From the IMG/VR virus record IMGVR_UViG_3300032156_000932: a DNA stretch of 15,752 nucleotides; one strand, written 5' to 3'. Each line of letters begins with the position of its first letter. Positions within the stretch are counted from its first letter, which is position 1. The DNA is from a virus. Shown here in pieces: positions 459 through 1,373 of the stretch. A program made the translations under genes and the position numbers. Under the pieces are notes generated by a model that ran no database searches, was not told the origin of the DNA, and saw only the letters and a program-made list of their open reading frames with translations.

Positions 459-1373
459 CTACTCCTCCATGGCCTCGATGGCTGCGTCCAGCTTGCTGCG
501 CATCACGTCCTCGCGCGCTACGGCCTCGTCCCACTTCTCCTCGTCCCGGACCTCCAGGACGTGCTTCCGCACCAAGTCGGTCAGGACGAGAGGGTCCAGA
601 GCGTCCAGCTCCCACGACTCGTCGCCATGCCGGGTGATGTACGAGGCAGCACGAGAGTCGGACAACTTCGCCGGGTTCGGCGGGGGCTCGTACTCCTCGA
701 TCTGCGGCCAGGTCAGCGCGAGCCGAACCACCTCCAGCTCGTGAGTGCATTGACTGGTTTTCGCGAACTGCCGAAGGCGATCCTCGACGTCCCTGTCCAT
801 GTCGAGGCCGCTCGGATCGTGGTCGCCGAAGTAGAGCACCAGGACGTGCTGACCACCGCCCCTCTCCAGGCTTCCACGCAGGATCTTACCGAGGGCCTTG
901 CCCCGCTGGTACATCAGGGATGAGGAGGCGTACCCACGGTTCGCGGTGTACGGGATGTCCAGCTCGCGGCACACGGGCTCCAGGATGCTAGAAACAGCAT
1001 CCTTCTCCGCGATCACCTCGACCCGCGTCGGCTGGTTTTCCCACTTGTCGATTGCGAACTGTCTGGCGGCGACCCGGACGATCTCGGCCGGGCTGTCCCA
1101 GTGCGACGGGGTCACGGTCTCGCGGACGCGGTCGATGATGCGGTCCCAGTCGATCAGGCCGGCGAGCCGAGCATCGCTCACGATGTTGCCGATGCGCTTG
1201 TAGCTCTGGTCGGTGTTGGGGATGTACCCCCGGGCGACGAGCCTGTAGTAGAGACCTCGGAGGGACAGGTCGATGCCCTGGGCGGCGAACTCGTTCAGGA
1301 TCTCGTTGCACCGCTCGATGATCTCAAGAGCATCCCTCTTGAAATCCTTGCCTGTGATGAAAGCCTCACGCAC
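459..1373 (-). CDS. Spo11 / topoisomerase VI-A-like protein (5Y-CAP plus Toprim; of the 'Mini-A' kind), 304 aa, GTG start
   Basis: Three motifs: LRGLYYRL (winged-helix RxxYY, candidate catalytic Tyr), VIAEKDAVSS (Toprim Glu) and YFGDHDPSGLD (Toprim DxDPxG). These are the E/DxD/Y signature of Spo11 and Top6A. RBS GGAGGTG lies 5 nt upstream of GTG 1373. Confidence 0.65.
   Translation of the reverse strand: MREAFITGKDFKRDALEIIERCNEILNEFAAQGIDLSLRGLYYRLVARGYIPNTDQSYKRIGNIVSDARLAGLIDWDRIIDRVRETVTPSHWDSPAEIVRVAARQFAIDKWENQPTRVEVIAEKDAVSSILEPVCRELDIPYTANRGYASSSLMYQRGKALGKILRGSLERGGGQHVLVLYFGDHDPSGLDMDRDVEDRLRQFAKTSQCTHELEVVRLALTWPQIEEYEPPPNPAKLSDSRAASYITRHGDESWELDALDPLVLTDLVRKHVLEVRDEEKWDEAVAREDVMRSKLDAAIEAMEE

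What the first reader, a model, noticed from the sequence alone, without database searches (positions are those of the whole stretch)
459..1373. Stand-alone Spo11 / Top6A-like ('Mini-A'-type) protein
The 304-aa protein has the three catalytic signatures of the type IIB topoisomerase A subunit: winged-helix RxxYY (LRGLYYRL), Toprim Glu (AEKDAV) and DxDPxG (GDHDPSG). No B (GHKL ATPase) subunit is nearby, and the protein is shorter than Top6A. Small Top6A-like proteins on plasmids and viruses are rare and functionally uncharacterised. JetD of Wadjet systems is a distant relative. It might make double-strand breaks for replication or recombination, or attack host DNA.
Basis: partly seen in the sequence, partly recalled or inferred. 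Interest (0 to 1): 0.6.

Follow-up and report, generated by a model that had tools for sequence, protein, structure and literature searches.

The report
Phage Topo Mini-A (stand-alone Top6A-like protein)
This gene encodes a new member of the already described viral 'Topo Mini-A' family, a short stand-alone relative of the DNA-cutting subunit of topoisomerase VI and Spo11; the family is very common in phage metagenomes and its function has never been tested.

The parts
459..1373 (-). Complete Mini-A coding sequence, 304 aa plus stop codon (stop at 459-461), GTG start at 1373
   Evidence: ORF list. PHROG 6247 full-length match, E 2.5e-94. Thousands of homologues. Synonymous changes exceed non-synonymous against the L005 orthologue.
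1044..1340 (-). Winged-helix 5Y-CAP-like domain (about residues 12-110). It lacks the N-terminal Top6B-binding part found in Top6A.
1245..1259 (-). R39-G-L-Y42-Y43: candidate catalytic tyrosine Y43 with the conserved Arg (RxxYY motif)
   Evidence: Read from the sequence. R39 and Y43 are present in 147/147 aligned diverse representatives. They align to Spo11 R131/Y135. The motif definition is in PMC7671362.
594..1034 (-). Toprim domain (about residues 114-260)
1005..1007 (-). E123, the Toprim metal-binding or general-base glutamate (AEKDAV motif)
   Evidence: E123 and K124 are present in 150/150 representatives. E123 aligns to Spo11 E233. Two homologues carry an intein inserted 3 residues upstream of it.
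807..827 (-). G183-D-H-D-P-S-G189: the Toprim DxDxxG Mg2+-binding motif
   Evidence: D184, D186 and G189 are present in 150/150 representatives. They align to Spo11 D288/D290.
666..686 (-). P230-P-P-N-P-A-K236, followed by D239 and R241: a nearly invariant motif in this family, of unknown role, inside the Toprim domain
   Evidence: Invariant in A1. K236 147/150, D239 146/150 and R241 145/150. An intein is inserted directly after this motif in P0310. It lies outside the region that hhalign could align to Spo11.
597..617 (-). S253-W-E-L-D-A-L259: the 'xWELDAL' T2BI box, the published discriminating signature of Mini-A
   Evidence: Read from the sequence. The definition is in PMC7671362. W254 145/150, E255 149/149 and D257 145/150.
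462..593 (-). C-terminal helical region (residues 261-304, two long helices)
   Evidence: AF2 H261-275 and H278-303, pLDDT 93-98. The sequence is only moderately conserved. Its role is unknown.
1380..1384 (-). Shine-Dalgarno GGAGG, 6 nt upstream of the GTG start
   Evidence: Read directly.
1391..1418 (-). Sigma-70-like promoter match (TTGACA-16-TAGATT, 10 of 12) just upstream of Mini-A. This is weak evidence only.
   Evidence: 1 found against 0.4 expected from shuffles.

Best explanation
The ORF encodes a Topo Mini-A. This is the virus-encoded, about 300-aa, stand-alone subfamily of the type IIB topoisomerase A subunit (Top6A/Spo11), made of a truncated winged-helix 5Y-CAP domain and a Toprim domain and nothing else. 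The proposed mechanism is inferred by homology and not shown. Two protomers would dimerise through their Toprim and 5Y-CAP surfaces, with the WELDAL box packing against the Arg39/Tyr43 region as the equivalent box does in Top6A. This would build two hybrid active sites: Tyr43, positioned by Arg39, attacks the DNA backbone, while Mg2+ is held by Glu123, Asp184 and Asp186 of the partner. The result would be a 5'-phosphotyrosyl protein-DNA link on one or both strands, potentially reversible. There is no ATPase subunit and the Top6B-docking segment is missing. So it probably does not perform ATP-driven strand passage. It more likely acts as a self-sufficient DNA breaking or nicking-rejoining enzyme, as purified mouse SPO11 does. 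In cultured phages the gene usually sits among replication, recombination and nucleotide-metabolism genes. The most likely biological role is therefore making programmed breaks or nicks that feed phage DNA replication or recombination. My confidence by layer is: family membership about 0.95, tyrosine/Mg2+-dependent DNA cleavage about 0.6, and a replication or recombination role about 0.3.
Against: No Mini-A has ever been assayed. Papers up to 2026 still call the function unknown. Sequence-level links to Top6A are weak: there is no Pfam TP6A_N hit, no PDB hit with the family profile, and hhalign gives a probability of only 5.5%. The global Foldseek TM-score to Top6A is low at 0.36. Dimerisation and trans active sites were not modelled. 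In this window the gene lies among accessory genes (GDSL hydrolase, DUF2786/DUF7168, Tad2-like, vault-protein homologue) and not in a recognisable replication module. The neighbour survey used BLAST-level clustering and crude ORF calls, so a fast-evolving or distantly encoded partner could have been missed.
Confidence: 0.6

Rival explanations
1. Mini-A is the DNA-cleaving subunit of a true type IIB-like topoisomerase. Its ATPase or clamp partner ('Mini-B') would be encoded elsewhere in the phage genome, or borrowed from the host.
For: All other type IIB enzymes with this catalytic core (Topo VI, Topo VIII) work with a GHKL ATPase. The authors who defined the family leave this open. Only about 16 kb of a genome of probably about 212 kb is visible here, so a distant partner cannot be excluded.
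Against: There is no GHKL or Topo VI-B family in the window, among 150 nearest neighbours, or as a recurrent BLAST cluster in 77 loci. The N-terminal 5Y-CAP segment that docks Top6B is absent in Mini-A. Mini-A occurs in genomes as small as about 31-35 kb, and the family's describers found no Bergerat-fold protein in the contexts they examined.
Confidence: 0.12
2. Mini-A is a replication initiator. It nicks one strand at an origin and stays covalently attached through Tyr43, priming rolling-circle or sigma-type replication in the way HUH endonucleases do.
For: This was proposed for skuldviruses of Asgard archaea, which have Mini-A but no other recognisable replication protein. Mouse SPO11 can nick and reseal single strands. 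The catalytic Tyr is invariant.
Against: Many Mini-A phages already encode primase, helicase and polymerase modules, so an initiator role is not required. At least one archaeal virus has both an HUH Rep and Mini-A. No origin-like repeats were looked for or seen next to the gene here.
Confidence: 0.1
3. Mini-A is a hydrolytic, MksG/JetD-like nuclease with no covalent intermediate. The phage would use it to degrade host or competitor DNA, or to interfere with Wadjet-type defence.
Against: MksG has no catalytic Tyr in its 5Y-CAP-like domain. Mini-A keeps the Arg and Tyr at the Top6A/Spo11 position in 147/147 aligned sequences. There is no PADLOC hit to JetD/MksG or to any other defence model, and no JetABC/MksBEF genes nearby.
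Confidence: 0.1
4. Mini-A is a non-catalytic DNA-binding or structural protein that only retains the fold.
For: Some phage annotators call homologues 'DNA binding protein'. No activity has ever been shown.
Against: All metal-binding and nucleophile residues are present in every aligned sequence across 150 representatives no more than 50% identical to each other. Inteins are located at the catalytic motifs. Inactive paralogues normally lose such residues.
Confidence: 0.03

Closest known systems
Topo Mini-A (Takahashi, Da Cunha, Krupovic, Mayer, Forterre, Gadelle; NAR Genom Bioinform 2(1):lqz021; PMC7671362); equals PHROG 6247 'DNA topoisomerase'
   Same: The length is similar (304 aa against about 300). 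Both have the two-domain 5Y-CAP plus Toprim architecture, the RxxYY, E and DxDxxG motifs, and the xWELDAL box. Neither has a B subunit. Both are virus-encoded. The window protein is 38-46% identical to homologues in Pseudomonas, Salmonella, Xylella and other phages.
   Different: Nothing essential differs. This copy sits in a contig whose close relative is a 212-kb (jumbo-sized) viral genome, whereas most cultured carriers are 35-86 kb. It lies among accessory genes rather than in a replication module. It is at most 46% identical to any cultured-phage homologue.
Top6A, the A subunit of archaeal/plant DNA topoisomerase VI (PDB 1D3Y, 2ZBK, 2Q2E, 9O0G)
   Same: It is the best structural match for the whole protein and for the N-terminal domain alone. 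The domains are in the same order, with the same catalytic Arg/Tyr, Glu and DxD, and an equivalent T2BI box.
   Different: Mini-A is about 100 residues shorter and lacks the N-terminal Top6B-binding segment. It has no Top6B partner gene. It has WELDAL instead of (R/K)xExx(A/S). It has the additional near-invariant PPxNPAK...D.R motif. Pfam TP6A_N does not detect it.
Spo11, the eukaryotic meiotic double-strand-break enzyme (PDB 8URU)
   Different: Spo11 is eukaryotic and meiosis-specific, and in vivo it depends on TopoVIBL and other partners. Mini-A is viral and has no identified partner.
MksG/JetD, the nuclease of Wadjet/MksBEFG plasmid-defence systems (PDB 8B7F)
   Different: MksG has no catalytic Tyr in the 5Y-CAP-like domain. 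It has an elongated N-terminal domain and is encoded in an operon with SMC-like JetABC/MksBEF. Mini-A has the Tyr, has no such operon, and gives no PADLOC hit.
Topo VIII (plasmid-borne type IIB topoisomerases)
   Same: [quoted passage not shown]
   Different: Topo VIII carries a fused or adjacent GHKL ATPase and transducer, has RVELNAM instead of WELDAL, and is found on plasmids rather than viruses.

Membership tests
Topo Mini-A (PMC7671362) | About 300 residues containing only a 5Y-CAP and a Toprim domain | tested here: met
Topo Mini-A (PMC7671362) | Catalytic tyrosine preceded by a conserved Arg and an aromatic residue (RxxY/FY) | tested here: met
   R39-G-L-Y42-Y43. The motif is present in all aligned sequences of the family. 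It aligns to Spo11 R131/Y135.
Topo Mini-A (PMC7671362) | Toprim Glu followed by DxDxxG | tested here: met
   E123 and D184-H-D186-P-S-G189. Both are present in 150/150 representatives.
Topo Mini-A (PMC7671362) | C-terminal T2BI box with the subfamily-specific sequence xWELDAL | tested here: met
   S253-W-E-L-D-A-L259.
Topo Mini-A (PMC7671362) | No B (Bergerat-fold ATPase) subunit in the gene neighbourhood | tested here: met
   No GHKL family is found in the window or among 150 neighbours from 74 loci. No recurrent neighbour cluster was found. Only about 16 kb of the genome is visible.
Topo Mini-A (PMC7671362) | Encoded by a virus or provirus | tested here: met
   The closest relatives are IMG/VR viral contigs, including a 212-kb one at 95% identity. 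There are PHROG matches for several neighbours. The window also has a Tad2-like gene, a tRNA and a tmRNA.
Topo Mini-A (PMC7671362) | Falls inside the monophyletic Mini-A clade, separate from Topo VI and Topo VIII | not tested
   No tree was built. Indirect support comes from the full-length PHROG 6247 match and 38-46% identity to phage homologues.
Topoisomerase VI holoenzyme (type IIB topoisomerase) | Top6A-type catalytic core (5Y-CAP plus Toprim) | tested here: met
Topoisomerase VI holoenzyme (type IIB topoisomerase) | Match to Pfam TP6A_N (PF04406) or the Top6A Toprim family (PF21180) | tested here: not met
   There is no Pfam hit to either, even at E up to 10. There is no NCBIfam hit, and the family profile finds no PDB Top6A by sequence.
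Topoisomerase VI holoenzyme (type IIB topoisomerase) | Partner B subunit (GHKL ATPase plus transducer) and the N-terminal A-subunit segment that binds it | tested here: not met
   No such gene was found. The protein starts directly at the winged-helix core, as described for Mini-A.
Topoisomerase VI holoenzyme (type IIB topoisomerase) | ATP-dependent duplex strand passage (relaxation or decatenation) | not testable with these tools
   This needs biochemistry.
MksG/JetD (Wadjet nuclease) | Encoded with the SMC-like JetABC/MksBEF genes and matches defence-system models | tested here: not met
   PADLOC finds no family at E up to 10. No SMC or kleisin genes are present in the window.
MksG/JetD (Wadjet nuclease) | Top6A-like Toprim core without a 5Y-CAP catalytic tyrosine | tested here: not met

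The most novel reading that the evidence does not exclude
Mini-A is a self-sufficient, ATP-independent, tyrosine-linked DNA breaking and rejoining enzyme: a viral counterpart of Spo11. It would make programmed double-strand breaks or nicks to start recombination-dependent replication or genome processing in thousands of phage lineages. The near-invariant PPxNPAK...D.R motif, which Spo11 could not be aligned to and which is marked by an intein insertion site, would be a new DNA-recognition or regulatory element. If the stand-alone form is ancestral, as the family's describers consider possible, this would also bear on the origin of Topo VI and Spo11.
Probability: 0.3. Interest if true: 0.7.

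Novelty: new member of a known kind. Interest (0 to 1): 0.3.

Why it matters
The gene is an ordinary, well-conserved example of a family that was named in 2019 and is already in phage annotation libraries. The finding is therefore not a discovery. It still points at a real gap. Mini-A is one of the most widespread phage DNA-enzyme families, with more than 7,500 clusters at 50% identity, and it has no assay, no solved structure and no knockout phenotype. Showing that a 300-aa Top6A-like protein cleaves DNA alone would give a minimal model for Spo11/Topo VI chemistry. It would also clarify how many phages start or resolve replication and recombination. This survey adds three small points: a quantified lack of any conserved partner gene, near-universal conservation of the catalytic residues, and intein insertions at the Toprim Glu and the PPxNPAK motif.

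Tried and rejected
- **Library searches with the single sequence.** Pfam, NCBIfam and PADLOC returned nothing relevant. The only Pfam line, DndE at E 0.14, is noise.
- **Sequence searches of the PDB.** The protein alone and the 39-sequence family profile found no Top6A. The only hits were spurious ones to TtrD-like chaperones at E 0.25.
- **AFDB library.** It was unavailable, so I spent the last fold search on a domain-only test instead.
- **Supplementary tables of the Mini-A paper.** They are not held, so I could not check whether specific phage homologues are among its 23 named representatives.
- **Search for a 'Mini-B'.** BLAST clustering of all ORFs within 6 kb either side in 77 viral loci, and Pfam scans of the 150 nearest same-strand neighbours, found no recurrent partner. 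The abutting 70-aa ORF is dispensable.
- **Possible link to DNA hypermodification.** NP1 belongs to Queuovirinae and Pam3 carries aGPT-Pplase genes. However, no TGT/DpdA or Que genes appeared among the top neighbour families and the other contexts differ. I dropped this as anecdotal and did not test it genome-wide.
- **Bait sequence.** It served only to retrieve database proteins and was not itself included in alignment A3.

Full report

Yes. The ORF listing shows a single 304-aa ORF at 459..1373 on the minus strand with a GTG start. A GGAGG Shine-Dalgarno sequence lies 6 nt upstream, at 1384..1380. Homologues begin at the same residue. I checked the three quoted motifs by hand against the sequence:
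- RGLYY is encoded at nt 1245-1259 (R39...Y43).
- E123 of AEKDAV is encoded at nt 1005-1007.
- GDHDPSG is encoded at nt 807-827 (residues 183-189).

The ORF is clearly a real gene. It has more than 6,700 significant homologues in the word-indexed search. The exhaustive search found 7,517 clusters at 50% identity with E <= 1e-3, and 1,040 with E <= 1e-30. It matches PHROG 6247 over its full length at E 2.5e-94. Its differences from the 94%-identical orthologue in L005 are mostly synonymous, 32 against 15 codons. GC content is about 60% throughout the window, so the gene is not a compositional outlier.

**2. What is it?**

Takahashi et al. (PMC7671362) described 'Mini-A' as follows:
- Encoded by bacterial and archaeal viruses and proviruses.
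- Lacking the N-terminal Top6B-binding part of the 5Y-CAP, with no B subunit in the neighbourhood.
- Carrying RxxY/FY, E and DxDxxG.
- Carrying a C-terminal 'T2BI' box whose sequence, xWELDAL, discriminates Mini-A from Topo VI ((R/K)xExxA/S) and from Topo VIII (RVELNAM).

The window protein has S253-W-E-L-D-A-L259 (nt 597-617) and every other listed feature. PHROG 6247, which it matches, is annotated 'DNA topoisomerase'. Eighty-five cultured phage records hold a homologue at 23-46% identity, many annotated 'DNA topoisomerase' or 'DNA topoisomerase VI'.

**3. Independent tests of the Top6A/Spo11 relationship**

Simple profile searches fail. Pfam (including TP6A_N), NCBIfam and PADLOC give nothing. 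Neither the sequence nor a 39-member family profile finds Top6A in the PDB by sequence. The relationship is therefore remote, and I tested it by structure and by profile-profile alignment.

- **Foldseek.** The only full-length match is M. mazei Top6A in a DNA-cleavage complex (9o0g_A), at probability 0.99 over 311 columns. E is only 3e-3 and TM only 0.36. I attribute the weak global score to a different relative orientation of the two domains.
- **Profile-profile alignment.** I retrieved genuine Spo11 proteins from the database. All are labelled PF04406 plus PF21180. I aligned 29 of these proteins and ran hhalign against the Mini-A alignment. The score is modest, P/E 0.0069 and probability 5.5%. 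Even so, the single co-linear 163-column alignment puts all catalytic motifs in register: LSLR39xxY42Y43 with TxR131DIF134Y135, VE123K with VE233K, NxGY with GKGF, and D184xD186PxG with D288xD290PxG.

**4. Are the catalytic residues maintained?**

I counted residues across 150 representatives that are at most 50% identical to each other:

| Residue(s) | Conserved in |
|---|---|
| R39, Y43 | 147 of 147 aligned |
| E123, K124, D184, D186, G189 | 150 of 150 |
| E255 (of WELDAL) | 149 of 149 |
| K236 (of PPxNPAK) | 147 of 150 |
| D239 | 146 of 150 |
| R241 | 145 of 150 |

The last three belong to the motif PPxNPAK...D.R, which is nearly invariant in this family. This pattern argues strongly for a retained enzymatic function that uses the tyrosine. 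MksG is the nearest stand-alone relative, and its 5Y-CAP-like domain has no catalytic tyrosine (PMC10123090). Mini-A is therefore chemically closer to Top6A and Spo11 than to the Wadjet nuclease.

Three long homologues turned out to contain inteins with Hint and LAGLIDADG domains. Two are inserted at ...RVE|intein|CWVEKDA, three residues before the Toprim Glu. One is inserted immediately after PPPNPAK. From general knowledge, inteins home into conserved functional sites of important DNA-metabolism enzymes. This is further indirect evidence that both motifs are critical.

**5. Partners and context**

All confident genes in the window are on the minus strand. Upstream of Mini-A lie the following:
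- a GDSL/SGNH hydrolase (1401..1979)
- small unknown ORFs
- a DUF2786/DUF7168 protein
- a DnaJ-domain protein
- a metallophosphoesterase
- a Tad2-like protein
- a 900-aa major-vault-protein homologue

A 70-aa ORF (245..457) starts 1 nt after the Mini-A stop codon, but it is absent in the 98%-identical relative L004. It is therefore not an obligate partner.

To search for a 'Mini-B' I fetched 80 viral loci with 6-kb flanks, called ORFs and clustered them. No neighbour cluster occurs in more than 9 of 77 loci. Pfam scans of the 150 nearest same-strand neighbours of at least 110 aa show integrase (5), ParB (4), DUF5131 (3), YqaJ (2) and single helicases, a prim-pol and a methylase. None is a GHKL ATPase.

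Where annotation exists in cultured phages, Mini-A tends to lie in replication, recombination or nucleotide-metabolism regions:
- NP1: ligase, Mini-A, Sak4, Cas4 exonuclease, helicase.
- Parabacteroides phage PDS1: polymerase, Mini-A, NinG and SSB.
- A Chi-like Salmonella phage: next to ThyX.
- Salvo: next to a kinase and MazG.

Other contexts are uninformative.

The closest relative of the window region in IMG/VR is a 211,982-bp viral contig with a 95%-identical Mini-A and 78-97% nucleotide identity across the blocks that align. The window therefore probably comes from a jumbo-sized phage.

**6. Mechanism (inferred)**

By homology with Top6A and Spo11, the most likely mechanism is a homodimer with two hybrid active sites. 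Tyr43, positioned by Arg39, would attack the phosphodiester. Mg2+ would be bound by Glu123, Asp184 and Asp186 of the other protomer, giving a 5'-phosphotyrosyl link. In Top6A the T2BI box contacts the catalytic Arg and Tyr at the dimer interface. The stronger WELDAL version may gate activity in Mini-A.

With no ATPase and no Top6B-docking segment, ATP-driven strand passage is unlikely. Purified mouse SPO11 shows that this catalytic core can make double-strand breaks and reseal nicks without any partner once it dimerises (PMC11922746). I therefore favour a self-sufficient break or nick-and-rejoin enzyme that serves phage replication or recombination.

None of these steps has been shown for any Mini-A. 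Papers up to 2026 still describe the function as unknown, or merely hypothesise a replication-initiator role in skuldviruses. The rivals are listed separately with what would refute each: an unlinked ATPase partner, an origin-nicking initiator, an MksG-like hydrolytic nuclease or anti-defence role, and a non-catalytic binder.

**7. Comparison, novelty and verdict**

The protein passes every sequence and structure criterion of Topo Mini-A that could be tested here. Only formal phylogenetic placement was not done. It is not a Topo VI holoenzyme subunit, since it has no B subunit, no docking segment and no Pfam TP6A_N hit. It is not a Wadjet JetD/MksG, since there is no operon and no PADLOC hit and the Tyr is retained. 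It is not an OLD- or DnaG-type Toprim protein.

The family is named, reviewed and present in annotation libraries, so this is a new member of a known kind. It is at most 46% identical to any cultured-phage homologue, and it sits in an unusually large phage.

Interest is modest at 0.3. The family's function is a real open question and the protein would be a good minimal model for Spo11-type chemistry, but the finding itself adds no new kind of system.

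Noticed in passing
window 8652..11354 (-): A 900-aa ORF is homologous to the eukaryotic Major Vault Protein: Pfam MVP_shoulder 1.2e-29, Vault_3 1.4e-8, Vault_2 1.5e-3. In the phage collection it matches only three uncultured 'huge phage' genomes of 462-735 kb, at 42-44% identity. A 2023 preprint reports the first viral MVPs (10.1101/2023.11.10.566534). This may be more unusual than the Mini-A itself.
   Followed up: partly
window 11795..12160 (-) and 11457..11533 (-): The window encodes a tmRNA (Rfam RF00023, 96.8 bits; ARAGORN tag peptide ADADVIPFPKMAVPSLQRAA) next to a tRNA-Pro(UGG). 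They lie between the vault-protein gene and a 690-aa acidic protein.
   Followed up: partly
window 6949..7419 (-): A 156-aa protein has a C-terminal Tad2-like (Thoeris anti-defence 2) domain, Pfam PF11195, E 2.1e-19. This suggests that this stretch of the genome carries counter-defence or accessory genes.
   Followed up: no
window 1401..1979 (-): A GDSL/SGNH-family hydrolase (Pfam Lipase_GDSL_2, 7.4e-17) lies directly upstream of Mini-A on the same strand, 27 nt apart. The pairing is conserved in the close relatives L004 and L005. It did not appear among the 25 most frequent Pfam families in neighbours from the other viral loci.
   Followed up: partly
window 245..457 (-): A 70-aa ORF with no family match starts 1 nt after the Mini-A stop codon. 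It is present in L005 but absent in the 98%-identical relative L004, where the next gene follows Mini-A directly. This is a small-gene indel hotspot downstream of Mini-A.
   Followed up: yes
homologues P0267, P0241 and P0310 (not in the window): Some Mini-A genes carry inteins with Hint and LAGLIDADG domains at two different sites. One site is 3 residues before the Toprim Glu (...RVE|C...HN|CWVEKDA). The other is directly after the PPPNPAK motif. I did not find this reported in the papers I read.
   Followed up: partly
homologues P0204, P0060 and P0116 (not in the window): Domain fusions occur in the family. P0204 has an N-terminal DUF1643 domain (E 7.6e-23) fused to Mini-A. P0060 and P0116 have an acidic linker plus a CxxC...CxxC zinc-ribbon-like C-terminal extension.
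   Followed up: no
L087 4489..5375 (Parabacteroides phage PDS1); RDJL Phi 1 (H75/H76): In PDS1 the Mini-A homologue is annotated as two adjacent CDS ('DNA topoisomerase' and 'DNA primase'), and tblastn matches it in two pieces. In Roseobacter phage RDJL Phi 1 it also matches in two pieces across two annotated genes. These are likely frameshifts, sequencing errors or mis-annotations.
   Followed up: no
window 2625..3476 (-), 4087..4503 (-), 5895..6689 (-), 12601..14673 (-): Other annotated neighbours are a DUF2786+DUF7168 protein (PHROG 421), a protein with a C-terminal DnaJ (J) domain, and a calcineurin-like metallophosphoesterase. There is also a 690-aa, highly acidic, low-complexity protein with only a weak PHROG 4313 match.
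   Followed up: no
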